NCBI GenBank assembly: GCA_000165345.1
Contig: CM000436.1
Coordinates: 576,001-640,000 of the forward strand
Reading direction: 5' to 3'
Length of the DNA stretch: 64,000 nucleotides
The translations under genes were made by a program, and so were the position numbers. The notes below the pieces were generated by a model, which searched no databases, was not told the DNA's origin, and saw nothing but the letters and a program-made list of their open reading frames with translations. Every line of letters starts with the position of its first letter. Position 1 is the stretch's first letter. Positions 8,204-28,300 of this stretch are shown piece after piece.

Positions 8204-8734
8204 AGGACATTGAAAACGTTTGGGACGTGTTTCAAAGCTAATATTTTTTAGAAGGGTATTTTTTCTTAGAACGTAATTTCCAAAATTTATCAAGTTAAAC
8301 TCTACATTACGTGTTTGTCCACATGTACATTGCATGCAAACATCGGCATACGCAGCTAGAATTTGTTTAAAACTCCGGTTCTACCTTCTTAATACTAGGG
8401 CACACAGTAGAATAGCTTTAATAAATAATTAAGTAATACAATACTAAATAGTGGCGGCTAGTGCCGCCTGATAGGGCTACAATTCTAATACAAGGTGAAT
8501 GTCCACAATGAATAATATTAACCTGGAAAATCAGAGAATATGGGGGTTGCATTATTCATGAAGAAAAAGAAACCCTCAAATTCTGGATCAGCCATCTGAT
8601 AGATTAGTATGTCACAGTGCGTGGTTTACGTATCACCATAAATAGGAACTAAGTACCATCAATAACAAAGGTGAAGATAGAAATCGCTTCGATTATATAT
8701 ACATATCGAATTGCAACAAAGCAATATTGAATGC

Positions 8735-9148
8735 TTAGAATTCTTGTGAGTTTCCTTGTTTGGATTTAGATTTCTTTGGCAACAAGACAGTTGGAATGTT
8801 TGGCAAGACACCACCGCTGGCAATAGTAACATTACCCAAGAACTTGCTGAGTTCTTCGTCATTTCTAACAGCCAATTGGATTTGTCTTGGGGTGATACGT
8901 GTCTTCTTAGCATCTCTGGCAGCATTACCAGCGAGTTCAAGAAGCTCAGCACATAAATACTCCAAGACGGCAGCGAGATAGACTGGAGCAGCAGCACCAA
9001 TTCTCTTTGCATATCTTCCCTTCTTTAAGTATCTTGCAACTCTACCAACTGGGAATTGTAATCCTGCTTTAGCAGAGTTTGACATAGTTTTACGGGTAGT
9101 CTTCTTTCCTCCACCTCTTCCACCTGAACTTGTTACTTTTCCAGACAT
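8735..9148 (-). CDS. H2AX: Histone H2A, H2A.X-type (C-terminal SQEF)
   Basis: 137 aa. Carries the canonical H2A core ([38 protein letters not shown]…[28 protein letters not shown]…GGVLPNI). The C-terminus ends …KQGNSQEF*, the SQ(E/D)-hydrophobic phosphorylation motif of H2A.X. Confidence 0.9.
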
Positions 9149-9410
9149 TCTTTCTTGATTTATTTTATATTCAATATATTTTTTTTTTGTTATATCAAAG
9201 TTGCGATTATCACACCTTCAAAATTGATAGAACTGTTTCCACTCCCATTACCGTTTTTTTTACTTTATTCATTATCCACACTTTCTCCCCACATCAACCC
9301 TCTTTTCATTTATTCCTGCCTTTCTAGTTGCTTATTTAGCCGCTATTTGGCCTCTGGCCACATATCTAATATTCCACGCAACGTCTTGTCTAGGCCCGGC
9401 TTGAATTATA

Positions 9411-9418
9411 GGCGGGAA
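9411..9418. promoter_or_regulatory. GGCGGGAA E2F-like site upstream of H2A
   Basis: About 265 bp upstream of the H2A start on the minus strand. Same motif family as the other promoters in the window. Confidence 0.25.
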
Positions 9419-10290
9419 TGACTTTATTGGTTTGGGAATTGGGTGGCAAGGTAATGGAGTAGTCAAAAATGCAAATGATGATGTAGAAAGATTACTAATG
9501 AAGACTGATTAGAATGAGAAAATATAGATTATTTGTTCATGATGATTACTGGTTAAATATTATTTTTATTAATGTTTTCTACATAATACTTTTATTTTAT
9601 TCTTAGCATATTTAGTACTTTTTTTTCTTAAATAAATTTGACACGTAATTGCATGCAATTTTTGCTATTAGATAATTTGTAGTTTTTTTTTGTATGTAAC
9701 ACCGGTATATACATTAATTTAGTTGCATGCATATCAGGATGTGTTATAAGTTCTAACAATGTTTTAAATAATATACAATTTAAATGTAAAAGATATTCGC
9801 CAAAAAGAAGTTATAGAATATTAATAGAATAATTAATTAATTTATAAAACAATGCAAGAATTTTAAAGAGTTAAATGTTGGAAAAGCTAATAATAATTAT
9901 AATATGACTTAACAAAATAATACAACAAAAAGTTGGTTATTATTATTTAATTATGAAAAGATGGTTTGAAAAAAAAATTGGATGGTTAAGCTTTTTTTCC
10001 CTACAAGAAAGGAAGGTTAAAATCATAACCTGGAAAAATCTGGGGGTAGGGGAAGAATTAAATAAATATACATTTATTTATCTCGACAAAAGAATTGAAA
10101 TACCATTAAGGTGGCATAAACCACACATTAAATGTAAATTTTGGACATAAATTTGAGAATTTAGTATTTAAAAAATAAAAGAAGTAATATATTATTACAA
10201 GAAATATATAATTTCTGTAATTAAATCAATGTAGTATAATATTAGTAATTTAGCAAAACAAAAAAATCATAAATTTTAAATATATTTAAA

Positions 10291-11892
10291 ATGGATAAAT
10301 ATTATGTAACCAATCAAATAGGAGAGGGAGGATTTGGTGAATGCTATTTGATAGAGACAAAAAAAGGAGAACTAATACAAGAAAAATTGGTGGCCAAAGT
10401 AGTTAATATGAGTAGAATGACTGAAATTGAAAAGAATAATTCCATTCAAGAAATTAAAATACTCAATATTATAAATCATATAAATTTGGTAAAATTGGTC
10501 GAATCTTATACTACTAAGAATCTACTTTGTATAATTATGGAGCTTGGTGAATATGGAAGCTTAGATGGTGAAATTGAAGCAAGAAGAAAAGAAGGACAAG
10601 ATAATATTTACTTTACTGAAGATGAAGTATTATTTATTTTTCTCCAAATACTTCTTGGAGTTAAATATTTACATGATAATAATATTGTTCATTGCGATAT
10701 TAAATCTAATAATACCATTTTATTCTCCAACGGAATGGTTAAACTTTCTGATTTTGGTATTTCCAATATTTTATCATCTAATAAGGATGAATTAAATAAG
10801 TCTGAAAGTTTTTCAAATCCTCTTGTACAAGGCTCTATTTATTATTTAGCACCTGAAATATATTCAAATATGCAACACGATAAAAAAAGTGATTGTTGGA
10901 GTATTGGTTGTTTATTATTGGAACTTTGTTCTTTAGAAAAAGTTTTCAGAAAGTATTCAATGCAAGAAATGTTAATATTTTCTATTAGAAATAAAGATCA
11001 ATTTAAAAAGGAAATTAATAATCATATTGAAACTTATGGTGTAAATAAGAGATATTCTCAAGAACTAGTCAATATAATTAAAGATTTACTTAATCCTAAT
11101 CCTCAAGAAAGACCAAATATTCAACAAATCTTTCAATCTAATATATATTTCTTGAATTTTATTAATTCATTTCTAAATACATGTAATCATAAACATTGGA
11201 ATCAATTTAATAGTATTTGTAAAGAGTTAAGTACTTTTAATTACAATTCTGTAAATAAAAAAAATTATATTAATATATCAAGAATTCCTTTCTGGATTAA
11301 ACAAGATGTGGATACTGAGAACAAAAGCTCCAAGTTTTTTTTAAAACAAAGTTTAGATGAATGGTTTAAAAGTCAGGAGATATTTACTTGTAATAGTTAT
11401 TCAAAGAGTAAGAGCTTAATGATTAACAATCAAAGTTCAAATGAACAAAATTGTGAAACAGGTCAAGGTAAGTACCAAGAGATTATTGATTATTTCAGCA
11501 ATAAAGAGAAGAACAAGCAAAATAAGAGACCACTTTCTAGAAAGGAAATATTATTACAACTTGAAACTACTGTTGAATTCTTTGTCACACAACTTAGTGC
11601 TATTAATAGTAAAAAAGTTACAACTGAAGAAATTATTAAGAGAAATCTCGCAAATAAACTTCGGGATAGTAATAGTACTAAAAAATCAACTAATACAAGA
11701 AACTCTTGTAAACAGCCAAAGATCTCACAAAAACTCCCATCTACAATTAACAGAACAAATAGTAATGCAAGCTTGAGAAAGAACCTAAAAATTAAATATG
11801 ATAAGGAAAGGGAACAATTAAGAGAGATCATGAGAAAAGGAAGAGCTGAAACCAAATTTAAAGGAAATATGGAAATAAATGATACAAGTTAA
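10291..11892 (+). CDS. Ser/Thr protein kinase, NEK (NIMA-related)-like, non-RD
   Basis: 533 aa. Kinase subdomains are present: glycine loop IGEGGFGECY, VAK lysine, catalytic loop HCDIKSNN (HCD in place of HRD), DFG, and APE as YLAPEI. The overall pattern is NEK-like. The C-terminal half is a non-catalytic low-complexity/basic region. Confidence 0.75.
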   Translation: MDKYYVTNQIGEGGFGECYLIETKKGELIQEKLVAKVVNMSRMTEIEKNNSIQEIKILNIINHINLVKLVESYTTKNLLCIIMELGEYGSLDGEIEARRKEGQDNIYFTEDEVLFIFLQILLGVKYLHDNNIVHCDIKSNNTILFSNGMVKLSDFGISNILSSNKDELNKSESFSNPLVQGSIYYLAPEIYSNMQHDKKSDCWSIGCLLLELCSLEKVFRKYSMQEMLIFSIRNKDQFKKEINNHIETYGVNKRYSQELVNIIKDLLNPNPQERPNIQQIFQSNIYFLNFINSFLNTCNHKHWNQFNSICKELSTFNYNSVNKKNYINISRIPFWIKQDVDTENKSSKFFLKQSLDEWFKSQEIFTCNSYSKSKSLMINNQSSNEQNCETGQGKYQEIIDYFSNKEKNKQNKRPLSRKEILLQLETTVEFFVTQLSAINSKKVTTEEIIKRNLANKLRDSNSTKKSTNTRNSCKQPKISQKLPSTINRTNSNASLRKNLKIKYDKEREQLREIMRKGRAETKFKGNMEINDTS

Positions 11893-12029
11893 TTATTTTG
11901 CGCCTAAAATGGTAATTAAAAATGATAATTAAAATCTGATTACTTAACAATAATATTGAACCATTTGATTTTAAAGCTAATAATATATTTAATACTAACT
12001 TTTGATCATTCAATCTTCCAATATGAATT

Positions 12030-12458
12030 ATGGACGAATTACATCCACTTTTTAGGAATAATGTTCCTTCTACTAGTGAGTTGAAGTCTAATGAAATTTA
12101 TTCAGCTCTTGTTGAGATTTCTGCTCAAAAAGTTCAGGATACTTCAATAAATAACAATAAATCCCAATTATCAAAAGTAGATAAGAATTCATCCAAGATC
12201 TCTGTATTATCAAAAGGTATTAATAAAACACATAATTCGGAAAGATATATAAAAGGCAGGTATCAACGTCATCTAGACAAAATAAAAGCTACAAAATCAA
12301 GAATGGAACAAGAAAAGAGACAAAATTATCTTGATAATATTACTAGTAAAAACCATCAAGTTACTGATGATCATCACCATGATCAACAAGTTAAGGAGCT
12401 TGCTGAAATGGAACTTTGCATGTCTATTTGGTCTAACAAAAACATATTTTCTGAATGA
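12030..12458 (+). CDS. Hypothetical small charged protein (uncertain)
   Basis: A 142-aa ATG ORF sitting 138 bp downstream of the kinase gene. The composition is charged and low-complexity. No recognisable promoter motifs lie upstream, so it may be spurious. Confidence 0.25.
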   Translation: MDELHPLFRNNVPSTSELKSNEIYSALVEISAQKVQDTSINNNKSQLSKVDKNSSKISVLSKGINKTHNSERYIKGRYQRHLDKIKATKSRMEQEKRQNYLDNITSKNHQVTDDHHHDQQVKELAEMELCMSIWSNKNIFSE

Positions 12459-12790
12459 TAGAGAGATTATTATTCTAAATTCAGTTATCTAGAAGCAATT
12501 AGATACTGAGTATAAATATATATATATTATATATACATCAATTTAGTATTTTCACGCTTTGAAATTTATTTAAAAATTTCCTTTCTTATTATTTTTTCCC
12601 TAATAACCAACGCCTACATAATATTTAACTAAAATTCTCATTTCCAATCAAAGTTCAAACCTAAATCTAAATACAAATCCAGATATTTCAACTATTAATA
12701 ATATCTTTATCGAATTTTTTTAATTCCCTCTAATAAATACCCTCTTGTTTTCTTTATAAAGATCTTTTTAACGATACCTGTATTATTTAA

Positions 12791-12823
12791 CAGGGCGGGC
12801 AACAGTTGGCGCCAAAATCTCGG
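12791..12823. promoter_or_regulatory. CAGGGCGGGCAACAGTTGGCGCCAAAA composite E2F-like element
   Basis: A GGCGGG half-site and a TTGGCGCCAA palindrome about 70 bp upstream of the actin-related protein ATG. Confidence 0.35.
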
Positions 12824-12889
12824 TATGAATTATTTGTAGAAACAAGTGTTAATGTCAGAGAAAAGGTAAAGAAAAAAAATAAAGCAGAA

Positions 12890-14161
12890 ATGAGTGGAAA
12901 GGAGACATTTATTGGAGGAGATGATGTGGGAGCAATTATTGTAGATGTAGGTAGTTGTATGACGAAGATAGGGTATGGTGGGGAAGATTGCCCAAGACAA
13001 GTTTGGCCTTCAGTAGTTGGAGTTAAGGAAAATGGTGATAAAAGGTTTCCGTTAAATTTCTTGAGTTATTTGGAAGATGTATCTGTGGAGCCTTGTTTAA
13101 AGTACGAAGATGGTGGTTTGATTTTGAATGGTGATGTATTTGAGGAGATTATTAGAACAACTTCAGGGAAAATTGGACTTTCAACAGATTTAAGGGAGCA
13201 TCCAATATTATTAACGGAACCATCCAAGCATAATAGACAGATTAGAGAAAAGGAGGTTGAAATAATGTTTGAAAAATTTGATGTGCCAGCAGTTTATACG
13301 GCAAAGAAGGCAATTTTGAGTGCTTTTTCTGTAGGTAGATCATCAGGTCTAGTCGTAGATATTGGAGCAACAGCAACTTCAATTGTTCCGATATTGGATG
13401 GATATACCCTTCAAAAACCACTATGTGAGTATCCAATAGGAGGAGATTTTCTGGATGACCAAATTGCCAGACATTTACTAAAAGAGAAGAATTTGAGTAT
13501 TTCCCCTAATTTCTCCTTTAAAAAGATAATTCACAAGGATAAACCATTAAGTTATGAAAGTGTTAACTTAGAGAAAGTGACAAGTTCATATATTGAATAT
13601 GGCAAAAGAGAGGTTTTAAGGAATATAAAGGAATCGATTTGTCGTTGCGCTGAGCACGAAGAGGTTGCTAAGACATCATCAGCACTTGCAACATCTACTT
13701 ATGAGTTGCCTGATGGCACATTAATAGACTCTGAACCTATTGGTATTCGTGTTCCCGAATGTTTATTAAATCCTGAGATGATTATCAATGATTCTGAATT
13801 TCCTCCAGTGAACACTAATGGGTTCCCAGGACTATGTTCTGCAATTTCTAATACTATCATAGCTTGTGATATTGATATCAGAAAAGACTTAATAGGAGCA
13901 GTGATTTTAACTGGAGGTACGTCCATAATTCCAGGTTTGGCTGACCGTGTTTCAAAATCCCTAGCTGAAGATGACAAATTATCAGGCGGAGGACCTAAAT
14001 TAAAGATTATATCCCCAAATTCTACAGTAGAAAGAAGATTTTCAAGCTGGATAGGTGGTAGTATTTTGGCATCTTTAGGTTCCTTCCAGCAAATGTGGTT
14101 CAGTAAGGAGGAGTATACCGAACATGGAGCAAAATTGGTTGAGAGAAAGTGTTCTAACTAA
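12890..14161 (+). CDS. Actin-related protein (Arp4-like)
   Basis: The ORF track starts at a TTG at 12806. The first in-frame ATG is 12890 (MSGKETFIGGDDVGAIIVDVGSCMTKIGYGGEDCPRQVWPSVVG…), which matches the actin/Arp N-terminal phosphate-1 motif. Actin-fold motifs run throughout (…VVDIGATATSIVPILDGY… GGTSIIPGLADR… WIGGSILASLGSFQQMWFSKEEYTEHG). Confidence 0.75.
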   Translation: MSGKETFIGGDDVGAIIVDVGSCMTKIGYGGEDCPRQVWPSVVGVKENGDKRFPLNFLSYLEDVSVEPCLKYEDGGLILNGDVFEEIIRTTSGKIGLSTDLREHPILLTEPSKHNRQIREKEVEIMFEKFDVPAVYTAKKAILSAFSVGRSSGLVVDIGATATSIVPILDGYTLQKPLCEYPIGGDFLDDQIARHLLKEKNLSISPNFSFKKIIHKDKPLSYESVNLEKVTSSYIEYGKREVLRNIKESICRCAEHEEVAKTSSALATSTYELPDGTLIDSEPIGIRVPECLLNPEMIINDSEFPPVNTNGFPGLCSAISNTIIACDIDIRKDLIGAVILTGGTSIIPGLADRVSKSLAEDDKLSGGGPKLKIISPNSTVERRFSSWIGGSILASLGSFQQMWFSKEEYTEHGAKLVERKCSN

Positions 14162-14428
14162 CTTACACGATTATTTCTCTTTTTTTCCCTTTTAAGCTAA
14201 TCTATAATTACATTACTATTTATTATAATTATTATTATCCTCTTAATTTTCATCTGTAATTTATTAATTTGGTACTTTTTTCACATTAAGATTCTATAAA
14301 CTTTTATTTAGAATGTTCTTAAATAGAAACAAGTTGTTATATAAATTTCATTAATAAAAAAAAGTAGGAAAAACTTGTTAAATTCTCATCTTAATAGAGA
14401 ATTTAATAAAATAAATAAATCTAGTAAT

Positions 14429-14456
14429 TTGCATGCAATTGGCGCGCGCGCCAAGC
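14429..14456. promoter_or_regulatory. TTTGCATGCAA + TTGGCGCGCGCGCCAA (AP2-like site plus a perfect 16-bp GC palindrome)
   Basis: Located about 90 bp upstream of the RCC1-repeat gene ATG. The two motif classes sit directly next to each other. Confidence 0.4.
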
Positions 14457-14547
14457 TGTTGTGATTATTGCAAGTATTTACAAAAATATTATCTAATGGA
14501 GTGAATGTAAAGGGTTGATTGATAAAGGAAGTGTGGGAAAAACATCT

Positions 14548-15804
14548 ATGTATTCTAGTGTTCAAAATCAAAATACAAAGAATGAATATTTGATAACAAC
14601 ATCAGATTATTTGCTGGATTTAAGCCGTCCAGTGAGTAAAAAGACAACAGTTTCTGTATATAAAGGTATTAATAATATAGAAACAATTCATACATTGGGA
14701 AAGAAGAAAATAATACAAGTGAGCTCAGGATTGAATCATGTGTTGTTTTTAACATCTGAATTTGAAATTTATTCATATGGAACAGGATTATTTGGACAAC
14801 TTGGACATGGAGAATCAATACAGAAGTTAAAGGAGCCAAAAAAGATACAAGAAGACATCGAGGGAGTAATAAAGATCACGGCAGGTACTTATAGTTCCAT
14901 AGCTTTAACAAGTAAAGGGGAGATATATAGGTGGGGATTGTATGATTTAAAGAGTCCAATAGTATTTAAACCAAAATTGGAGACATTTTTTGGAGGGAAG
15001 AATAAAGTTGTAGAAGTAGAATCATATAAGGAAAAGACATGTATAGCTTTGGATAATGGTGAGATATATGCTTGGGATTTTCATAATCCTAGGATGGAAT
15101 TAATTTGTAGGCTTAATGATACAATAGTTAAACAAATTTCAATTGGTGCTTATTTTACTCTAGTTTTAGATTCAGATTCACAGTTGTTTGTTTGGGGTGA
15201 TAATACATTTGGTGAATTTAGTGAGAATGATATGTATATTTATGATCCAGACTTTCCAAATTTTAGTAGATTAAAAATAGAAGCTTGGGGTCTTTCCACA
15301 AAGAATTCAAACTTAAAATACATAAAAGAGGATGAATTACCAAATAATATATGTGAAGATACGAAAATTGCGGAGGGTTTGGAAGGTAATTCTAGGGAAA
15401 TATATATAGAAAAGATTACATGCGGTGAAAAACATTGTTTAATATTAACTTCAATAAATTCTATTTTATGCATGGGAGATAATACATATGGACAATGTGG
15501 TATACTTGATGATAAAAAAAGCATTTATCCTCCAGTAACATTGAAAAAGTTTAGTGAGTTGGATTTTTTAAAGCCATTTATTTCGTGTGGAAGTAGATCA
15601 TCAGCAATTATTTCTCCAACAGGTAAACTATTTTTATGTGGTCAGTTATATACTAATTCTAAAAGTAACAAAAAGATTGGAGTTTCTAGATATGCTGATA
15701 AAATTGAAGATTTTAACAGACTTTACACAGAATACTCAATCATTCACAGAAACTCTTCTGTAATTGACTTCAATGATAAAACTTTTATTGTAATTTCAAA
15801 CTAG
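14548..15804 (+). CDS. RCC1 (regulator of chromosome condensation) repeat protein
   Basis: The ORF track starts at a TTG at 14515; the first in-frame ATG is 14548. It contains several RCC1-type blade repeats (…HVLFLTSEFEIYSYGTGLFGQLGHGE…, …SSIALTSKGEIYRWG…, …HCLILTSINSILCMGDNTYGQCG…). Confidence 0.7.
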   Translation: MYSSVQNQNTKNEYLITTSDYLLDLSRPVSKKTTVSVYKGINNIETIHTLGKKKIIQVSSGLNHVLFLTSEFEIYSYGTGLFGQLGHGESIQKLKEPKKIQEDIEGVIKITAGTYSSIALTSKGEIYRWGLYDLKSPIVFKPKLETFFGGKNKVVEVESYKEKTCIALDNGEIYAWDFHNPRMELICRLNDTIVKQISIGAYFTLVLDSDSQLFVWGDNTFGEFSENDMYIYDPDFPNFSRLKIEAWGLSTKNSNLKYIKEDELPNNICEDTKIAEGLEGNSREIYIEKITCGEKHCLILTSINSILCMGDNTYGQCGILDDKKSIYPPVTLKKFSELDFLKPFISCGSRSSAIISPTGKLFLCGQLYTNSKSNKKIGVSRYADKIEDFNRLYTEYSIIHRNSSVIDFNDKTFIVISN

Positions 15805-15916
15805 TCTTTGCTTTTAGTTAGATGAATTATACTAGCATTGCTAGTAGTATGATTATAGTTATTGTCGTTCGAACGTATTAATTAAAATTATTTAATCTCA
15901 AATCTATTTTATTTAA

Positions 15917-15971
15917 TTACACGTAATAATTACGTGTAATTAAAAATTCTTCCCGCCTGCATGCATGCAAT
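15917..15971. promoter_or_regulatory. Near-perfect palindrome TTACACGTAATAATTACGTGTAA followed by TTCCCGCC and TGCATGCATGCA
   Basis: Two inverted CACGTAAT units plus E2F-like and AP2-like cores, lying between the RCC1 gene and the HAP2-like gene. Confidence 0.35.
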
Positions 15972-16471
15972 AAAACTTGTCACCGGTATATGATTTTATT
16001 GACCACATAGATTTATGGTGTTAGTGAGCAAATTTTAGTAATAATTTTTTTGTACACAAATAAAATAATTATTCTTTTTTAATTAATAAGTGAATCATGA
16101 GTTTGGAATAACTTTATTATTAAAAAAAAAAAGAAAATCAAACTATTAATTTAGAGATTGATTAAATAATTTTTAATTGACATAAAGTTTGTTTAAAGAA
16201 TATTATTAAAAAATAAGGAATTGGATAAAGTGATATGATGAGTATTTAACAGTATCAGCTAAAATAATTAAAGTTATGGAGGAAAATCTATAAATATTTT
16301 TATTTGTTAATATGACCACACAAATAATAAGAGAATAATTAAAAAGTAAAATAGTGTGGGAGTTAAAAAAAGAATAAGTCGTTATGAAAGATATATAAAT
16401 TTATATGTAATGGTTTAAAATTGAGAGAAAATTTAAAAATTTAAGATGAAAGAAGAATAAAATAATATATA

Positions 16472-19325
16472 ATGGAGAAAATTATTTATTTATTATTAAT
16501 ATCAATAAACTGGTTGGTAGGAAATGCTATTTCACAGTTAATTGTGTCAGAACAAGAAATGTGTATGAATGGACAATGCAAAAAAATGTTGAACGGTCAT
16601 TTAGTTATACAGAATAATCAGGTAGGCTTATTTTTTTTTAGTAAAATAATAATTGAAAATTAAATATTTTGAAATTAATTAATTTTATAGGATGTATCGT
16701 TGAATTTTGGATCATCAGAAGTAAATGGAAAGAATGCAAAAGAAGCAGACCCAGGTTCTAATGGATTTAAGATTACAATAAAGAAGTCTCCAATATTAAT
16801 TGCATATGATTTGAGTTATATTTCAACTTTATATCATGATTTTCAAGAAGATATAAAATTGTTTTCGTTTACTCAAGTTGAAGGTGACCCATCTAGATTT
16901 TGTAATCATGAATTGAGAAGTTGTCAGAAAGTGAGAGACGAGTATTTATATGGAACACCAAATTGTAAGTTTTAATAAATTATTTTGAATTTAGCAATAT
17001 CTTAATAAAACATATTTAAAATGATTTATAGTGCCACCAGGTCAAAAAAATTGGACTCAAGAAACTCCAATACCACCTGGATCACAAGGATCGTGTTGTT
17101 GGTGTCCAGAATTATATGTAACGGTAAGTTCAATTGAATTAAAGTGCTGGAGGAGGGGCTTTTTATTAGGGATTAAGGTTTTTTATATTAGAGAAATTAA
17201 TGACATATTTACTCCCAATTAAATAATTTTTTTTTTTAGATAAATACTGATGCACCATTTTCAAGAGCTACATTACATTGTTCATGGATACGTAAGTTTA
17301 ATATATTACAAATGGAAATAATTTATTGAACTATTTTAAACTATTTATAGAGCAAAGAATGTGGTGGAATGTTTACTTATCGAAGTCATGCCCAGTTTGG
17401 ATACCACCATGGTGGACAGCTTTTAGAATAGGTGGATGGAACTGGCAATACTCATTAGAGGTTGAATTATCTTGGTTTAGTCCAACAGAATCATCAATTA
17501 ATAAGTTATCAAGTACAGAATTGGAAAATATGGAAAATGAATGTAAGAAAGAAAATAAGGATTCCACAATAGATTGTTCAAGATTAAGGCATAAAGAATC
17601 AGGAATTCAGACTTCTGTACATACATTAAATTCATCGTCTCCATCATTCTATGATCCAAATTTTGGAGCTTCAGTACAGGTAATAAGCTCAGGACCACCG
17701 TTTGGGAGTGCTAATGCAAAGGATTTGAATGGTTATTACATGTTACAACCAACATTTTCACCAAAAGGGATGCCTGCTAGTATTTCAATTCCTCCTTTAA
17801 GAAGTGGGTGTGGAAAAGCTTCAAAAAACCAAACAGAAGAGGAAATAAATGATTGTTTAAAGCCAACATTAATTATTCCTCCAGAAAATGCAGACTTTAC
17901 AGGAGTTTCATGTGATAAGATAGGAACAAGTGTTCATACTTGGAGTTCTGTGAACGGTAGATTTTGCTATCATCCACCTGGTACTTGTCAAAGAGCTCAG
18001 ATAGCTCACTTTTATAAGAAAGTTATAGAAGATCATTCACTTGGAAAGATTTCACAATATTCAGTAAGAGCACAAAATTCTGGTTCTCCACAGTTGATTT
18101 TGGATTCATTAGGAGAAATTGGTCATGAGGAGATGGATCAAAATGATATGGGAAATATAACTAATATACAATCACGCAGATTCTTTTTGGGATATAATTT
18201 TGATTCAATCTTTGACACAGAAATAATGTTCTCAGTCGAAGCTTCTTCTGTGTCTTGGGTAGCAACATCTTCTCCTGGAATTATTACATTTATAGAACCA
18301 CCACCTTTGGAGGCTTGCACAGCAATGAGTAGTTTTGGCTGTCCTCTAAAGGTTTATATTAAGAATAGTGGTAAGTTTGAATATATATATATATACATTT
18401 CGAATTGAATTGAAAATAACTTAACAAAAATATTCTATAGGGGATATTGATTCAGGTTTTGTAGTTCAAATACCTTATTGTACAAAGTCAGGAGTACAAA
18501 CAAGTGAGGTAGGTTTGTATTTAATTCATTCAAATTTATATAATTAATTAATTTAGGTTGATCCAATAATGGCACAAACAAAGAAGATTAAAGCCAATTC
18601 AATAGGAATTTTTACTTTTGTATTGGGAGTTTCCGTATTAACTGGGAGTGAATATAAGTGCGTGGTAAGTATATATATATTTAATGCATCCAATATATGC
18701 ATGCATACAATAAATGCATGCATGCAATATATTGGTAAACACTATTAAATAACAATATTAAATATTATTTCTATTCAAATAATAGGTTGTGTTGTATAAT
18801 TCATTTTCAGTTCAACTGGATCAGAATATGTTCACTTTTTCAACAACTTCTACAACGGTAAGTTTATTTGAAAGAAGATATCGTTTTTGAATCTTAATAT
18901 TAATTATTAATATAAATATTTTGATATCAAATTGAAAATTTAAGATTTCAATTGCAAGTTCAGATTCAATAATTTCTGATGTAGTAGTGAATCAAACTTC
19001 GTTAACAAACAAAAAGTTTGATTCTATGTTTACAGGAAATAAATGTATTTCTTGTGGATTAAATTTTTGGTGTTTAATAGCAAATAGTAAGTTAAAAATG
19101 AATCATTCTTTTAAAATTTAAAATAATTAAAATAAATTTCAGTTAAAGATTGTATTATGTTAGGTATTAAATGTATAGGGATAATACTTGGATTGATAAT
19201 AGGATTTGTTATATTATTAAAGTTGATAAAGATAATACTTGAACTACGTAAAAATAAGAAAATTGAAACAAGGATAATTAATAATAGCCAAGAAAGTTTA
19301 AGTCAAGGTATTAATAGGAAGAATT
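16472..19325 (+). CDS. HAP2: HAP2/GCS1-like gamete-fusogen candidate: 10-exon gene encoding a signal-peptide, Cys-rich, single-pass membrane protein
   Basis: Exons, all with GT..AG boundaries and consistent phase: 16472..16621, 16691..16964, 17032..17123, 17240..17291, 17351..18370, 18441..18508, 18557..18664, 18785..18856, 18945..19086, 19141..19325 (TGA stop). The model is about 720 aa. The N-terminus is a signal peptide (MEKIIYLLLISINWLVGNAIS). The ectodomain carries SQGSCCWCPELY and GRFCYHPPGTCQRAQIAHFY motifs, which resemble the conserved HAP2/GCS1 domain (CC.C … C.RF… H.F). A C-terminal TM helix (IKCIGIILGLIIGFVILLKLIKIIL) is followed by a short basic tail. The ORF track shows only the exon-sized fragments 16472.., 16700.., 17031.. 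and 17326... Confidence 0.6.
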
Positions 19326-19397
19326 GATTTGAATTGAAGTAAAACAAACAAAACAAAAGAAGCAATGAAAGTATATTAAAAGTTAATTAATATGGGC

Positions 19398-20560
19398 CTA
19401 GCTGAAAAAATTATTATTAATAATTTTGCCAGTATTTTTATCAATATGAATAGTAATGACTCCAAGATTTGGTAATTGCCATAATACAGATCCTAATAAG
19501 TGGAAATTAATTGATTAATTTAATTAAAGTTGAAATAATCAGAATTTCAATAAAAATACCTTTTAAAAGCCTTTTCAAGAAGTAATAATGGGATACCAAT
19601 ACGATTTCATTATTTTCAAGATCTTGATAATTCTTGATAAAATTAATAAATTGTTGAATTCTTTGATCCACTTGTTCATGATCTTCTGGAAGTACAATAT
19701 AATCTTTAAAGTTGGTGTCAGGAAGAAATGATATATCAGCTTTTGGGTAATTTTTGATAATTTCTTCCTTAGATAAACAAGGAACATCTGATATATATAG
19801 AGCTTTTTCTCTAACAAAATCCAATACACAAATTTTGCAATTTTCAGAAGATCTTTTTGAAATCAAATTTGAAGTTTCCATGGCTCTTCTTAAGTTGGAA
19901 GTAATAATCAAAGAAGCTCTTTCCATTATTGGTTTTCCTTTATATGTTGGCTAATTCAGAAATGTTTCAGGAAAAAAAAGTACAATTATTATAGAAAGAT
20001 ATTAAGTAAAGTTATTATTGGTTTAAAATATATGACCATATAATTGTCACTTACACCACCATTATCACCAAAATTATTCGCTTTTTCAACTCCATACTTG
20101 GATAAAGGAGCATCCAAAATACCTAAAGATTTAAAGAGTCATGTAATATATATTTATTGGTATTTTTATTTAATAAGTTTATTCCTGTTTAGTTAGTCTA
20201 TTATAATCCATTCAAATGTATTAATTAGATTGGATTATACTATTCTATTATAATAGGAAATGAACTTAATAACTTACCTGGATCTTTACTAGATAATAAT
20301 TCGTGTATATTCAAGGTTTTAATATTATGGTTTCTTAAGGCATTCATGGTACTTTCAGCATGTCGTATACAATGTACGGTGACAATATTCTTATATTTGG
20401 TTATTGGTTGGTTAGTTATAGCAGTATTGAATTGTTTCTCGCATTTTGTTTGGTTATTTGTAATTTTCCCAAATAGAGGAATGGCTATTTTTTTAAAGTC
20501 CAAGTTTTTGTTATTTTTTTGGAAAACAAATTTTTTCAAGATTGTTTTAACTTGAAGCAT
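19398..20560 (-). CDS. Histidine phosphatase (phosphoglycerate-mutase family) protein, 4 exons
   Basis: Minus-strand exons: 20278..20560 (ATG; contains IVTVHCIRHAEST, the RHG catalytic motif), 20055..20122 (GILDAPLSKYGVEKANNFGDNGG), 19560..19950 (…LIITSNLRRAMETSNLI… IVLVSHYYFLKRLL), and 19398..19492 (TAG stop). Donors are GTAAGT, GTAAGT and GTATTT. The last intron is the least certain. The alternative is read-through to the stop at 19507, as the ORF track has it. Confidence 0.5.
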
Positions 20561-20895
20561 TTTTTTTCCCTTTATTGGATTATTATATATTTTTATGATT
20601 ATATTTCAGTTATTATGCCAAAAGTTTAAAATAACAACATTAAATTATATTGGAATTCAATTAAAAATTATATTGTTCACAAATAATATCAATTAGTTGG
20701 AGTAATATTAAAGTGAATTGGTTAAAATAAATAAATATTACTTTTTTGGAGACTTTTTGAAACAAAATTTTAATAAAGTTGGCCTTTTAAATTAACCCCA
20801 CTCCAAAAAAAATCAATATACTCCTTTTAAGAATATTTTCAGAAAAGAATAACAAGAAATCCTCTTTTTCTTTCTTCTCTGTTAATACATTTATT

Positions 20896-20952
20896 TTTGC
20901 ATGCAAAAATAAATGTTATTAAAAACAATTAGGCGGGCAATCCGAGCGGGTC
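20896..20952. promoter_or_regulatory. TTTGCATGCAAAAA … AGGCGGGCAATCCGAGCGGGTC motif cluster in a divergent promoter
   Basis: Lies between the PGAM-like gene (- start at 20560) and XRN (+ start at 21200). It contains both AP2-like and E2F-like cores. Confidence 0.35.
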
Positions 20953-21199
20953 ATTCATGATTATATAAAGTCAATAATGGAAAAAAAAGTCAATATAGTA
21001 TAATAAAAGGAAGATAAGAAAAAAAAGAGTAAGAGAAGAGAAGAGGTGAAATGTTAAGAAAGAATTGATGACGAAGATAATTTTCAGAAAGTATTAATTG
21101 AATTTTCTTTGTTGTTTCGAATTACATCATTAATAAAAGTATTATTTTACTACTACTATTACTATTACTACTACAGTTTCCTTTTATTAAAAGAGAAAT

Positions 21200-25252
<4,053 letters not shown>

Positions 25253-25386
25253 ACACAAAAACTCTTAAACACTAGAACAAATTTTTTACTAGAGAAATTC
25301 TAATCAAAAATAATTCTTCAATCAAATTTATTATTAACAAACAGTTATTCCAATTCTTATACCTTATTTCCATCCTTTTTCTAATA

Positions 25387-28300
25387 TTAAAATAGATAAT
25401 ATATAGAAAAAGAAAAACAAAAGAAGAATTCATAAATTAACTTTGGAAATAAAATCTGCCAAATCATTATATTCTCCCTTAATATAATTATTCCCAAAAC
25501 TGTAAATAAGTATTTTGATAATATTATCCCCATCATCCAAATCTTTGGATTCCTTAATCCCAATGATGGAAGCTTAAGCATAATTGATAAAGAAAATAAA
25601 TGAGATGTCAAAAAATATATTACCAATAATTGAGATATTATCAAATGGAAATAATCCAATCCTATCAATCCAACATATTCTGGTATCGTTTCCAACTTTA
25701 ATTTATTACCCAAATTATAGAAATTATTCAATGATAATAAATATAATAAAATAATATTTTCGATACCTTTAATAGGTACCGAAATTAATCTATTATTATT
25801 ATTATTATTATTATTATTTTCTTTTGAATTATGATGAATTATTCCGTCCAATCTTAAACTCTCTATTGAAATTAATTGTATTATACTAGAAATTGAATAT
25901 GGTATTATTAATTCATTCTTTAATAAAAATATTAAAATTAAATGATGATTAAGCCATTGATTGATTAATAATCTATAATCTACAGTATTCTTTGTTTCTA
26001 TTGCACTTTTATCCAATTCTTTAGATAATTTTAATCGATGTCTTTTTATAAATAAATCATATATAGTCTTTGTTAGTTGTATTAAAGCCAAAATACGTAC
26101 AATATTATTATTGTTAATCCAATTAAACCAAACATATATTGGTACAATAACCATGATTAATATATTCCATCTATTTAATATATTCTTATAAACTATTAAT
26201 AATAAAAATAAATAAAATATTAATATAAATAATATAGTAATTTTAGATTTTAATAATAAATGAATATTAAAAAATCCAAAATTTAGAATTTGTTGAATTT
26301 CATAATCAAATATAAATGTAAAACGTATCAATATTAATTGTATAAATGGTAATAACATTTGTCTTAAATTATTTTTTGAACCAGAAAATAATAATATAAT
26401 CTGATAAGATATTAATAAAAATCTCACAACTTTTCCTTCATTTCTTGCAAATGATGCTGAATAACTACAAAAATGTATTAAACATAATAAAGTCATTATA
26501 CACCAATAAAAATTCCATCTCAATTCTTTATTATTCAAACTTAATTTAAAGATATTACAATAAAATGAATGTATCTCATACCGGTATCTTATCAATATGT
26601 GCATCATAATAAGCGTGATAATTGTAAATGTAAAAAAATTACAATAATATATAAAATCTTGGGTAAAAAATAAATTTTGAGAAAATAGATATATTCCAAT
26701 TAAATTAAAAATGGATGATATTAAAATAATAATTAAATAAATAGTAAATAATTGACCAGATTTGAATTGTATTGTATTGTATATAGATAATTGTTGTTTT
26801 GATGATGCTTCATTAGATTCTGAAGATGAAGATAAAGATAAGAATCCTTTTTTTTGATTAAACATGAATCTTGACATGCTTAAATTAAAGCTTGGAATAA
26901 TAATAATTGATACAAATACAAATAATGAAAAAATGATAAGAAATCCTTGAATAATTGATACCCAATCAAACTTGGATTTGTCTTTTAATAGCTTATTTTG
27001 AATAAGCAAAGCAAATTCATATGATAGTTGATAATGTTTCTTACATATACTGATCAAAGTTTCATAATTATTTTTTTGATTACTTTCACCGTTATTTTGA
27101 GCCCTTAATAAGTCAGCATTTTTAACTAATTGATAACTTTTATAGAATTCATAATACTTGGATTTAATTTGAGCGTCCTGTAATCTGATTTGACCTCCTA
27201 AGTTATTTAGGAGTCTGTTAAAGATTTGAAAAGCATTATTATGCATTACTTTTGCGTAATTAATTTCTTGTAAAAATTGTTGATGATGATCTTGATCATC
27301 ATGATCATCATGTTCGGTACCGCTTTTTAGATGGATCTTAAAATCCTCTCTAAATATACCCAAGTTATTTTCTGGTATTGGAATTCCTAATGATGAGGAT
27401 ATAATTGGAATAGTATCAATTTGATTAAGAACTTTAATGTTTTTAATTCTTTCATTTAAAGATACTTGCTCGGAAATTTTATTTTTTACTGGCAAATCCC
27501 ATTCGGGTATCTTTTCCATTGAAGTAATAAAAGGAATTGTAGAGAATGCAAAAAAGCCCGCGTTTGTTTCGGTAATGCAGGAGCCTCCGTGCCCGCCATT
27601 TTCATTCTGACCGTGATCTCCGAATAATAAAAATAAGATTTTTTCAGATTTATTATTTTTTTTAATAAAATTATGGATTTGTTGAGTAAATTCTTTAGGA
27701 GTGAGATGATCATTTTTATTGTTGATTTTGAGAAGTAGTTGTAAAGTTTTGACAGCTGTTTGATCCATTTGGGAGAGTTTATTCTTCATGTCATCGTTAT
27801 AAATACCAGAATAATGTCCAATATGATCAACCCCAATAAAATGATTTACCATAAACTTCCAATCATTATATTTTTCATAATGATTATTTGTATGATTTAA
27901 GAAAAAATTAATTTTATCTTCAACAAATTTATCCAAGCTATCAAAATCTCTGATATCTAATGATCCAAATTTATGATTATAATGAATTAATTCACTATAT
28001 AATAGATCCCATGTATCATCTCCAGCGACTACAGATTTTTTATTTTTTAAGAATAGATTTTTTAAAATAGTTGGAGTTTCTGCGTTATTTTTAGGTCTTA
28101 ATGCAGAAATAAGATCAAATATTCCAGGATTTTCTCCTGACATGAGAGATTTGATTCTAAAGGTTGTTAAGGTTGGGAAATCTGCTTTGAAATTAAAGAA
28201 ACGAATATGATTTTTTAATTCATCACTTCTCATCAATTCGTTTAAATACTTAAATTGATTATGAATTTGATTATTAGGATTTTTCGTTTCAATATTTAAA

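What the first reader, a model, noticed from the sequence alone, without database searches (positions are those of the whole stretch)
16472..19325. Ten-exon gene encoding a HAP2/GCS1-like fusogen candidate, visible only as fragments in the ORF track
Four separate ORF-track fragments (16472.., 16700.., 17031.., 17326..) and six further small exons join through nine GT..AG introns (50-130 nt) with perfectly maintained phase. Together they give one ~720-aa type-I membrane protein: signal peptide, Cys-rich ectodomain, a single C-terminal TM helix and a short basic tail. The ectodomain contains SQGSCCWCPELY and GRFCYHPPGTCQRAQIAHFY. The CC.C and C.RF…H.F arrangements are the ones I associate with the conserved HAP2/GCS1 domain of gamete fusogens, which are class-II viral-fusion-protein-like. 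A 9-intron gene is striking in an otherwise intron-poor, compact genome. HAP2 is the key male-gamete fusion factor in apicomplexans and a transmission-blocking target.
Basis: partly seen in the sequence, partly recalled or inferred. Interest (0 to 1): 0.8.

Follow-up and report, generated by a model that had tools for sequence, protein, structure and literature searches.

The report
Cryptosporidium parvum HAP2 gamete-fusion gene

Summary
Both the observation and the interpretation hold. Ten exons (16472-19327, + strand) join through nine GT..AG introns of 48-121 nt into a 720-aa ORF. That ORF is residue-for-residue identical to GenBank QOY39979.1 (CPATCC_004046, 'Male gamete fusion factor', C. 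parvum IOWA-ATCC chromosome 8). The window is 100% identical to that record over the 18.9 kb compared.

The protein matches Pfam PF10699 HAP2-GCS1 over the whole profile (E 2.5e-42). It keeps the family's conserved cysteines and the Glu/Arg pair of the fusion-loop region. It has a signal-peptide-like N-terminus, one C-terminal TM helix and a basic tail. With a 47-sequence alignment AlphaFold2 gives pLDDT 76.6. The best PDB matches to that model are HAP2 crystal structures (E ~1e-32, TM 0.69-0.76), followed by other class II fusogens.

All nine introns sit at the same positions in C. canis, C. felis and C. serpentis, and every exon shows third-codon-position substitution bias.

The gene is cgd8_2220. 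Tandel et al. 2019 tagged it and found it only in male gamonts and gametes, at one pole. So the finding is correct but already known. Fusion activity itself has not been shown in Cryptosporidium in the papers I read. Minor extras are mis-spliced orthologue models, an unusually Trp-rich fusion-loop region and a conserved upstream motif.

The parts
16472..16621 (+). Exon 1 (aa 1-50): start codon, signal-peptide-like hydrophobic N-terminus, first conserved Cys pair (C31, C36)
16622..16690 (+). Intron 1, 69 nt, GTAGGC..TATAG, phase 0
   Evidence: GT..AG conserved in 4 species; length 60-81 nt
16691..16964 (+). Exon 2 (aa 51-142): includes the conserved Glu E103, equivalent to Chlamydomonas E126
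16965..17031 (+). Intron 2, 67 nt, phase 1
17032..17123 (+). Exon 3 (aa 142-172): SQGSCCWCPELY, the CCxC signature (C163, C164, C166) and the start of fusion-loop region 1
   Evidence: substitutions against C. canis 0/0/14 by codon position
17124..17239 (+). Intron 3, 116 nt, phase 0
   Evidence: 57-69 nt in the other species
17240..17291 (+). Exon 4, a 52-nt mini-exon (aa 173-190): INTDAPFSRATLHCSWI with the conserved Arg R181 (equivalent to Chlamydomonas R185) and C186
   Evidence: 83-88% identity and no gaps in 3 other species
17292..17350 (+). Intron 4, 59 nt, phase 1
17351..18370 (+). Exon 5 (aa 190-530): Trp-rich fusion-loop region 2 (QQRMWWNVYLSKSCPVWIPPWW), the remainder of the elongated part of the ectodomain (domains I and II by homology), the invariant core CDKIGTS...GRFCYHPPGTCQ (C377, C395, C402), and the start of domain III
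18371..18440 (+). Intron 5, 70 nt, phase 1
18441..18508 (+). Exon 6 (aa 530-552): domain III strands, C543
18509..18556 (+). Intron 6, 48 nt, phase 0
18557..18664 (+). Exon 7 (aa 553-588): domain III, C587
18665..18785 (+). Intron 7, 121 nt, phase 0. It carries three TGCATGCA motifs (18698-18726) in a near-palindrome, which is absent from this intron in C. canis, C. felis and C. serpentis
18786..18857 (+). Exon 8 (aa 589-612): end of domain III (LYNSFSVQLDQNMFTFSTTSTT)
18858..18944 (+). Intron 8, 87 nt, phase 0
18945..19086 (+). Exon 9 (aa 613-660): stem region with conserved membrane-proximal cysteines (C646, C655)
19087..19142 (+). Intron 9, 56 nt, phase 1
19143..19327 (+). Exon 10 (aa 660-720 plus TGA): C663, transmembrane helix (~aa 664-692), short basic cytoplasmic tail
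16314..16362 (+). Candidate promoter element, function inferred only. GACCACAC ... GTAAAATAGTGTGGGA lies -158 to -110 from the ATG. The GTAAAA-NN-GTGTGG block is conserved at about the same distance in C. canis and C. felis

Best explanation
The locus is the Cryptosporidium parvum orthologue of HAP2/GCS1 (cgd8_2220 = CPATCC_004046, chromosome 8). It is a ten-exon gene encoding a 720-aa type I membrane glycoprotein with a class II fusion-protein ectodomain.

The mechanism is inferred by homology with Chlamydomonas, Arabidopsis and Plasmodium HAP2. The protein sits at one pole of the male gamete. After the gamete attaches to the female, hydrophobic loops at the tip of domain II insert into the target membrane. 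Here those loops are aa ~167-180 and ~187-212, they are Trp-rich, and they are braced by the conserved R181/E103 pair. The protein then trimerises, domain III (aa ~500-610) and the stem fold back towards the TM anchor, and the two bilayers are pulled together and merge.

Shown here: the gene structure, family membership, conserved residues, predicted fold and purifying selection. Shown in the literature: male-restricted expression and polar localisation. Inferred: fusogenic activity and a requirement for fertilisation in Cryptosporidium.
For: The spliced ORF is 720 aa with no internal stop and is identical to QOY39979.1 'Male gamete fusion factor'. The window is 100% identical to CP044415.1 over 18,856 nt.

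PF10699 matches at E 2.5e-42 over the full profile. Direct phmmer hits reach Arabidopsis and T. cruzi HAP2 structures. A family profile containing this protein hits 5MF1 at 4.7e-134.

E103 is conserved in 38/38 aligned relatives, R181 in 35/38, the CCxC cysteines in 33-38/38, and C377, C395 and C402 in 47/47. E103 and R181 map to Chlamydomonas E126 and R185.

The AF2 model has pLDDT 76.6. Its top Foldseek hits are HAP2 structures 6DBS, 5OW3, 6E18 and 5MF1 (E 1e-32 to 1e-27, target-normalised TM 0.69-0.76), then Fsx1, RVFV Gc, EFF-1, alphavirus E1 and flavivirus E. Domain III matches PfHAP2 D3 (9yc3_B) at TM 0.77 and rmsd 3.5.

Intron positions are conserved in four species, exons are gap-free and introns are free to vary in length. 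Codon-position differences against C. canis are 88/55/389, and dN/dS against C. serpentis is 0.20.

From the literature: HAP2-HA is found only in male gamonts and gametes, at the pole facing the female (PMC6877471). cgd8_2220 is used as the male marker (PMC7840661). A HAP2 intron has been validated experimentally (10.1101/2024.11.22.624643). The introns of this annotation are RNA-seq supported (PMC8744675).
Against: None of the papers I read reports a knockout, antibody block or fusion assay for Cryptosporidium HAP2. A 2026 review still says only that it 'may' be part of the adhesion or fertilisation machinery (PMC13007382).

Sequence identity to solved HAP2 structures is only 15-17%. The structure is a prediction whose alignment consists of HAP2 homologues, and with 5 sequences it failed (pLDDT 33.8).

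I did not see RNA-seq reads myself. Splice support is comparative plus the annotators' published statement.
Confidence: 0.95

Rival explanations
1. The protein is a genuine HAP2-family member, but in Cryptosporidium it serves mainly as an adhesion or recognition molecule at the male pole, and membrane merger is carried out by something else. This parasite has an unusual problem: the male must cross three membranes to reach a female enclosed by host-derived membranes.
For: Function is untested in this parasite. [quoted passage not shown] A second male-apex protein, GGC1, exists.
Against: All the fusogen-specific features are retained under purifying selection. These are the hydrophobic tip loops, the Arg/Glu pair, domain III, the stem cysteines and the TM anchor. 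An adhesion-only protein would not need all of them.
Confidence: 0.04
2. The ten-exon model is partly wrong: one or more small exons are not used, or alternative junctions are used, so the real product differs from 720 aa.
For: Deposited models for this gene vary widely, at 349, 394, 593, 609, 622, 691, 713 and 720 aa. The C. canis and C. felis models use other junctions.
Against: The exact 720-aa model is the curated IOWA-ATCC model, whose introns the authors describe as RNA-seq supported. Each small exon is conserved, gap-free and third-position biased. Exon 4 carries the family-conserved Arg and Cys. The variant models either delete conserved residues or insert intron-encoded peptide that is not conserved.
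Confidence: 0.02
3. The fragmented ORFs are a decaying pseudogene, or a chance concatenation of AT-rich ORFs.
For: The gene appears only as fragments in a prokaryote-style ORF list.
Against: The spliced ORF is intact in four species, with 24 of 25 Cys conserved. dN/dS is 0.20. There is a full-length Pfam match. The protein has been detected in male gametes.
Confidence: 0.005

Closest known systems
C. parvum HAP2, cgd8_2220 / CPATCC_004046 (QOY39979.1); Tandel et al. 2019, Nat Microbiol (PMC6877471)
   Same: It is the same gene. The 720-aa product is identical and the DNA is identical over the 18.9 kb compared.
   Different: Nothing differs. Older deposited models of the same locus are truncated or fragmented, for example XP_627125.1 at 349 aa, which roughly corresponds to exon 5 alone.
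HAP2/GCS1 of Chlamydomonas reinhardtii (PDB 5MF1, 6E18, 6DBS) and Arabidopsis thaliana (5OW3)
   Same: The Pfam family is the same, as are the three-domain class II fold, the CCxC and core cysteines, the Glu/Arg pair (E126/R185 corresponding to E103/R181) and the type I topology.
   Different: Identity is only about 15-17%. The tip region is much richer in Trp, with 8 W in aa 166-222 against 0-5 in the 35 non-Cryptosporidium relatives compared. The cytoplasmic tail is very short at about 25 aa. The male gamete that carries the protein lacks a flagellum.
Apicomplexan HAP2 proteins (Plasmodium HAP2, PfHAP2 D3 in PDB 9YC3; HAP2-domain proteins of Neospora, Besnoitia, Eimeria and Theileria)
   Same: These are the nearest non-Cryptosporidium relatives found with a Cryptosporidium-based profile (E 1e-54 to 1e-14). 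Domain III superposes on PfHAP2 D3 at TM 0.77. In Plasmodium the protein is male-gamete specific and a transmission-blocking target (cited).
   Different: Identity to the Cryptosporidium protein is about 20-30%. The coccidian proteins are longer, at 850-1130 aa. Function has been shown genetically in Plasmodium but not in Cryptosporidium.
Class II viral fusion proteins, EFF-1/AFF-1 and archaeal Fsx1 (the fusexin superfamily)
   Same: The overall fold is shared, with Foldseek E 1e-13 to 1e-6. The foldback fusion mechanism is presumed to be the same.
   Different: There is no detectable sequence-family membership (7-10% identity), and TM scores are much lower (0.25-0.5) than to HAP2 structures.

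Membership tests
HAP2/GCS1 gamete fusogens (Pfam PF10699) | Match to the PF10699 profile above its gathering score, over most of the ectodomain | tested here: met
   145.6 bits against a cut-off of 27.4, E 2.5e-42, aa 34-660, profile 2-513 of 515. 46 of the 47 sequences in the alignment (the query, four Cryptosporidium orthologues and 42 more distant relatives) hit the same family.
HAP2/GCS1 gamete fusogens (Pfam PF10699) | Three-domain class II fusion-protein fold | tested here: met
   The AF2 model has pLDDT 76.6 and pTM 0.66. The best PDB matches are HAP2 6DBS, 5OW3, 6E18 and 5MF1 (E 1.5e-32 to 2e-27, target-normalised TM 0.69-0.76), followed by other class II fusogens. Caveat: this is a predicted structure, not a solved one.
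HAP2/GCS1 gamete fusogens (Pfam PF10699) | Conserved cysteine framework (CCxC in domain II, invariant core cysteines, domain III and stem cysteines) | tested here: met
   C163, C164 and C166 sit in columns that are Cys in 33-38 of 38 relatives. C377, C395 and C402 are Cys in 47/47, C543 in 46/46 and C587 in 44/44. 24 of 25 Cys are conserved among four Cryptosporidium species.
HAP2/GCS1 gamete fusogens (Pfam PF10699) | Conserved Arg-Glu pair that braces the fusion loops (Chlamydomonas R185-E126; PMC8777248) | tested here: met
   R181 lies in a column that is Arg in 35/38 relatives and E103 in a column that is Glu in 38/38. The same profile columns align to chain residues 165 and 106 of 5MF1, which is R185 and E126 with a consistent offset of 20. 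The residues are present; the salt bridge itself was not tested.
HAP2/GCS1 gamete fusogens (Pfam PF10699) | Type I topology: signal peptide, large ectodomain, single C-terminal TM helix, cytoplasmic tail | tested here: met
   The only Kyte-Doolittle 19-aa windows at or above 1.6 start at aa 7 and at aa 656-678. The tail has 6 K/R and 2 D/E. AF2 predicts helices at aa 2-16 and 660-710. No dedicated signal-peptide predictor was available.
HAP2/GCS1 gamete fusogens (Pfam PF10699) | Expression restricted to one gamete type (male or minus) and localisation at the fusion site | not testable with these tools
   From the literature only: HAP2-HA expressed from the native locus labels only male gamonts and gametes, at the pole oriented towards the female (PMC6877471).
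HAP2/GCS1 gamete fusogens (Pfam PF10699) | Required for gamete membrane fusion, with trimerisation and membrane insertion of the fusion loops | not testable with these tools
   None of the papers I read reports a functional test in Cryptosporidium. The role is inferred from Chlamydomonas and Plasmodium.
Viral class II fusion proteins, considered as the structural superfamily only | Shared fold with alphavirus E1, flavivirus E and bunyavirus Gc | tested here: met
   Foldseek E 8e-12 (RVFV Gc) to about 1e-5, at 7-10% identity and TM 0.2-0.5. This is fold resemblance only, not sequence-family membership.

The most novel reading that the evidence does not exclude
The gene itself is known, so the remaining novel readings are about details.

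(a) The exceptionally Trp-rich tip (aa 186-222: SWIQQRMWWNVYLSKSCPVWIPPWWTAFRIGGWNW) is conserved in all four Cryptosporidium species examined. It could be an adaptation that lets Cryptosporidium HAP2 attack host-derived membranes around the female gamete, not just a naked gamete membrane.

(b) Male-specific transcription could depend on the conserved upstream GACCACA...GTAAAA-NN-GTGTGG element and/or the C. parvum-lineage TGCATGCA cluster in intron 7. That might help to explain why HAP2-promoter fluorescent reporters failed in Tandel et al. 2019.

Neither reading is excluded by my evidence, and neither is supported beyond sequence pattern.
Probability: 0.12. Interest if true: 0.4.

Novelty: already known. 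Interest (0 to 1): 0.12.

Why it matters
HAP2 is the conserved eukaryotic gamete fusogen and a validated transmission-blocking antigen in Plasmodium. In Cryptosporidium, sex is obligatory for making oocysts, both for transmission and for sustaining infection, so HAP2 is a plausible 'contraceptive' vaccine or drug target, as Tandel et al. 2019 argued.

None of this is new. The gene is annotated, tagged, used as the standard male marker, and even mined for a synthetic intron. The practical value of this re-analysis is modest:
- It confirms that the 720-aa IOWA-ATCC model is the correct one among at least eight discordant deposited lengths.
- It shows that several orthologue models are mis-spliced or N-terminally truncated.
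- It pinpoints the likely fusion loops and domain III for immunogen design.

Tried and rejected
- AF2 with only the five Cryptosporidium sequences gave an unusable model (pLDDT 33.8).
- A second word-indexed homologue search with the Cryptosporidium alignment found nothing beyond the same four clusters. The exhaustive HMMER search was needed to reach other HAP2s.
- An Rfam scan of 15800-19600 at a permissive threshold gave only two sub-threshold miRNA-like hairpin hits (24 and 22 bits against gathering scores of 93 and 100). I dismissed these as chance matches to AT-rich palindromes. No intronic snoRNA or other known RNA was found.
- The intron 7 TGCATGCA cluster was tested for conservation as a possible regulatory element. 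It is absent from the same intron in C. canis, C. felis and C. serpentis, so it is not a conserved feature of the gene.
- The minus strand across the gene has no ORF longer than 66 aa, so there is no sign of an overlapping gene.
- The pseudogene and chance-ORF readings are rejected.
- A literature search for a link between HAP2 and the male regulator Myb-M returned only a review.
Full report
**1. Observation**

The region 15800-20000 was read and its ORFs listed.

I rebuilt the splice chain by hand and by script. The ten exons are 16472-16621, 16691-16964, 17032-17123, 17240-17291, 17351-18370, 18441-18508, 18557-18664, 18786-18857, 18945-19086 and 19143-19327. They give a 2163-nt CDS, which is 720 codons plus TGA.

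The nine introns are 69, 67, 116, 59, 70, 48, 121, 87 and 56 nt long. All begin GTA(A/G)G and end AG, and they are 12-26% GC. Exon end phases are 0, 1, 0, 1, 1, 0, 0, 0, 1. The stated intron range of 50-130 nt is slightly off, since the real range is 48-121 nt. Otherwise the description is accurate.

**2. Identity of the locus**

A homologue search returned only Cryptosporidium proteins, all pre-annotated with PF10699: C. meleagridis 97%, C. canis 83%, C. felis 76% and C. serpentis 64% identity.

An exact-sequence look-up showed that my 720-aa translation is already in the collection as QOY39979.1 / CPATCC_004046, 'Male gamete fusion factor [Cryptosporidium parvum]'. Sibling entries carry locus tags *_8g2220.

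The encoding contig is CP044415.1 (C. parvum IOWA-ATCC chromosome 8, assembly GCA_015245375.1). Record positions 576042-594897 are 100% identical to window 8472-27327.

The neighbours are a histone H2A, a protein kinase, an actin-like protein and an RCC1-repeat protein upstream, then a histidine phosphatase (minus strand) and an XRN exonuclease downstream. Seven of the eight genes lying wholly within the locus are intronless (span = 3 x (residues + 1)), so the 'intron-poor context' statement holds locally.

**3. Independent support for the exon-intron model**

I fetched the orthologous loci of C. canis (L002), C. felis (L003) and C. serpentis (L004) and aligned the genomic DNA.
- All nine donor and acceptor pairs are GT..AG at the homologous positions in all four species.
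- Exons 2-9 align without gaps, or in exon 5 with gaps in multiples of three, at 67-88% identity.
- Introns are 45-73% identical, full of indels, and vary freely in length. Intron 5 ranges from 59 to 241 nt and intron 7 from 59 to 121 nt.
- Projecting the C. parvum exon map onto the other genomes gives intact ORFs of 720, 713 and 739 aa, each with a hydrophobic N-terminus. 24 of the 25 C. parvum cysteines are conserved.
- Substitutions against C. canis fall 88/55/389 on codon positions 1/2/3, and each exon on its own shows the bias. For example exon 3 is 0/0/14, exon 4 is 1/0/8 and exon 9 is 6/0/25. dN/dS against C. serpentis is 0.20.

The identical model comes from the IOWA-ATCC annotation. 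[quoted passage not shown] A HAP2 (cgd8_2220) intron has also been transplanted into a nanoluciferase reporter without loss of signal (10.1101/2024.11.22.624643).

**4. What the protein is**

*Sequence family.* Pfam gives PF10699 HAP2-GCS1 at 145.6 bits (cut-off 27.4), E 2.5e-42, aa 34-660 against profile positions 2-513 of 515, with no other family matched. Direct phmmer against PDB sequences finds Arabidopsis HAP2 (5OW3, 2e-5) and T. cruzi HAP2 (5OW4, 9e-4).

An exhaustive HMMER search of 1.84 billion representatives with the Cryptosporidium alignment found 60 relatives at E <= 1e-3. The named nearest ones are HAP2-domain proteins of Neospora, Besnoitia, Eimeria and Theileria. In the 47-sequence alignment built from the query, its four Cryptosporidium orthologues and 42 of these relatives, 46 sequences hit PF10699.

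*Conserved residues.* In that 47-sequence alignment the C. parvum residues occupy the family's conserved columns:

| C. parvum residue | Conservation of the column |
|---|---|
| E103 | Glu in 38/38 |
| R181 | Arg in 35/38 |
| C163, C164, C166 | Cys in 33-38/38 |
| C186 | Cys in 37/38 |
| C203 | Cys in 40/41 |
| C377, C395, C402 | Cys in 47/47 |
| C543 | Cys in 46/46 |
| C587 | Cys in 44/44 |
| C646, C655, C663 | Cys in 41-42 of 43-45 |

The profile of this alignment matches the Chlamydomonas crystal-structure sequence 5MF1 at 4.7e-134 across the whole ectodomain. In that alignment the E and R columns fall on chain residues 106 and 165. With a consistent offset of 20 these are E126 and R185, the salt-bridge pair described as a HAP2 hallmark (PMC8777248).

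*Topology.* Hydropathy shows only two hydrophobic segments, aa ~4-22 and aa ~660-695, followed by a 25-aa tail with 6 K/R and 2 D/E.

**5. Fold**

With the five-sequence alignment AF2 failed (pLDDT 33.8). With the 47-sequence alignment it gave mean pLDDT 76.6 and pTM 0.66, with an almost all-beta ectodomain and a C-terminal helix.

Foldseek against the PDB ranks the matches as follows:
- HAP2 structures first: 6DBS at 1.5e-32 (TM 0.73), 5OW3 at 7.8e-32 (0.76), 6E18 at 8.2e-32 (0.69), 5MF1 at ~2e-27 (0.75), and C. merolae HAP2 7S0K.
- Then archaeal Fsx1 (1e-13), Rift Valley fever virus Gc (8e-12) and C. elegans EFF-1 (2e-10).
- Then other bunyavirus Gc, alphavirus E1 and flavivirus E.
- Domain III matches the malaria transmission-blocking antigen PfHAP2 D3 (9YC3_B) at TM 0.77 and rmsd 3.5 A.

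**6. Mechanism**

By homology, the protein is anchored in the male-gamete membrane by its C-terminal helix. The loops between C166 and R181 (PELYVTINTDAPFS) and between C186 and C203 and beyond (SWIQQRMWWNVYLSKS, PVWIPPWW) correspond to the Chlamydomonas fusion loops and would insert into the female-side membrane. Trimerisation and foldback of domain III and the stem would then drive hemifusion and pore opening (model summarised in PMC8777248).

What is shown for Cryptosporidium is expression and location. [quoted passage not shown]

What is not shown, in the papers I could read, is a requirement for fusion. Tandel et al. propose genetic ablation as future work. A 2026 review still says HAP2 'may be' part of the adhesion or fertilisation machinery.

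**7. Comparison and novelty**

This is not a new member of the family but the known gene itself, so novelty is 'already known'. The respects in which Cryptosporidium HAP2 differs from other HAP2s are minor:
- It is only 15-17% identical to solved HAP2s and 19-32% identical to the non-Cryptosporidium relatives in the alignment.
- It has the most Trp-rich tip region in the 47-sequence sample, with 8 W in aa 166-222 against 0-5 elsewhere.
- It has a very short cytoplasmic tail.

**8. Things seen in passing**

- Deposited models of this gene are discordant: 349, 394, 593, 609, 622, 691, 713 and 720 aa within the parvum/hominis/meleagridis/tyzzeri cluster.
- The C. canis model reads into intron 2 (NCKFRFTDLSML in place of LPPGQK) and lacks five residues (ELDSG) at the exon 5/6 junction.
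- The C. felis model retains intron 1 (a 20-aa insert) and skips exon 4, deleting the conserved Arg.
- The C. meleagridis and C. serpentis models start at internal Met codons and lack the signal peptide.
- TGCATGCA occurs 18 times in the window against 0.56 expected. Two overlapping copies lie ~505 nt upstream of the HAP2 ATG and three lie in intron 7. The intron copies are not conserved.
- A GTAAAA-NN-GTGTGG block at -126 to -113, with a GACCACA ~30 nt upstream, is conserved in C. canis and C. felis. It is unique in the window.
- A 31-nt perfect palindrome lies at 15914-15944.

**9. Verdict**

The finding is real and correctly interpreted, but it rediscovers a published, annotated gene. Interest as a discovery is low.

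Noticed in passing
L002 (C. canis), L003 (C. felis), L004 (C. serpentis); protein ids P0001-P0016: Public gene models of HAP2 orthologues are inconsistent. Within the parvum/hominis/meleagridis/tyzzeri cluster the lengths are 349, 394, 593, 609, 622, 691, 713 and 720 aa. The C. canis model reads into intron 2 and lacks five residues (ELDSG) at the exon 5/6 junction. The C. felis model retains intron 1 and skips the 52-nt exon 4, which carries the conserved Arg. The C. meleagridis and C. serpentis models lack the signal peptide. Projecting the C. parvum exon map gives clean ORFs of 720, 713 and 739 aa.
   Followed up: yes
window 3719-61510 (18 sites); 15958-15969; 18698-18726: The palindromic octamer TGCATGCA occurs 18 times against 0.56 expected from shuffles. 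Two overlapping copies lie ~505 nt upstream of the HAP2 start and three lie inside HAP2 intron 7 in a near-palindromic 17-nt-spaced array. The intron 7 cluster is absent from the same intron in C. canis, C. felis and C. serpentis.
   Followed up: partly
window 16314-16362 (-158 to -110 from the HAP2 ATG); L002 and L003 at about -149 to -113: GACCACAC ... AAAGTAAAATAGTGTGGGA forms an imperfect inverted repeat (CCACAC / GTGTGG). Its 3' block GTAAAA-NN-GTGTGG is conserved in position in C. canis and C. felis within otherwise poorly alignable upstream DNA, and it is unique in the 64-kb window. It is a candidate male-specific promoter element and is untested.
   Followed up: partly
window 17095-17416 (protein aa 166-222): The predicted fusion-loop region of Cryptosporidium HAP2 is unusually rich in tryptophan: 8 W in 57 aa, as in SWIQQRMWWNVYLSKSCPVWIPPWWTAFRIGGWNW. 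The 35 non-Cryptosporidium family members compared have 0-5. It is conserved in all four Cryptosporidium species.
   Followed up: partly
window 15914-15944: A 31-nt perfect palindrome, TTAATTACACGTAAT-A-ATTACGTGTAATTAA, lies in the intergenic region between the RCC1-repeat gene (stop at 15804) and HAP2. It produced a sub-threshold miRNA-like Rfam hit. Its ACACGTAAT core is partly present in C. canis.
   Followed up: no
window 19398-20560, minus strand: The downstream neighbour is a histidine-phosphatase (PF00300) gene of 278 aa spread over 1163 nt, so it too contains intron(s). It appears as two separate ORF fragments (19507-19926 and 20240-20560) in the ORF list. It is the only other spliced gene in the 18.9-kb neighbourhood.
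   Followed up: no
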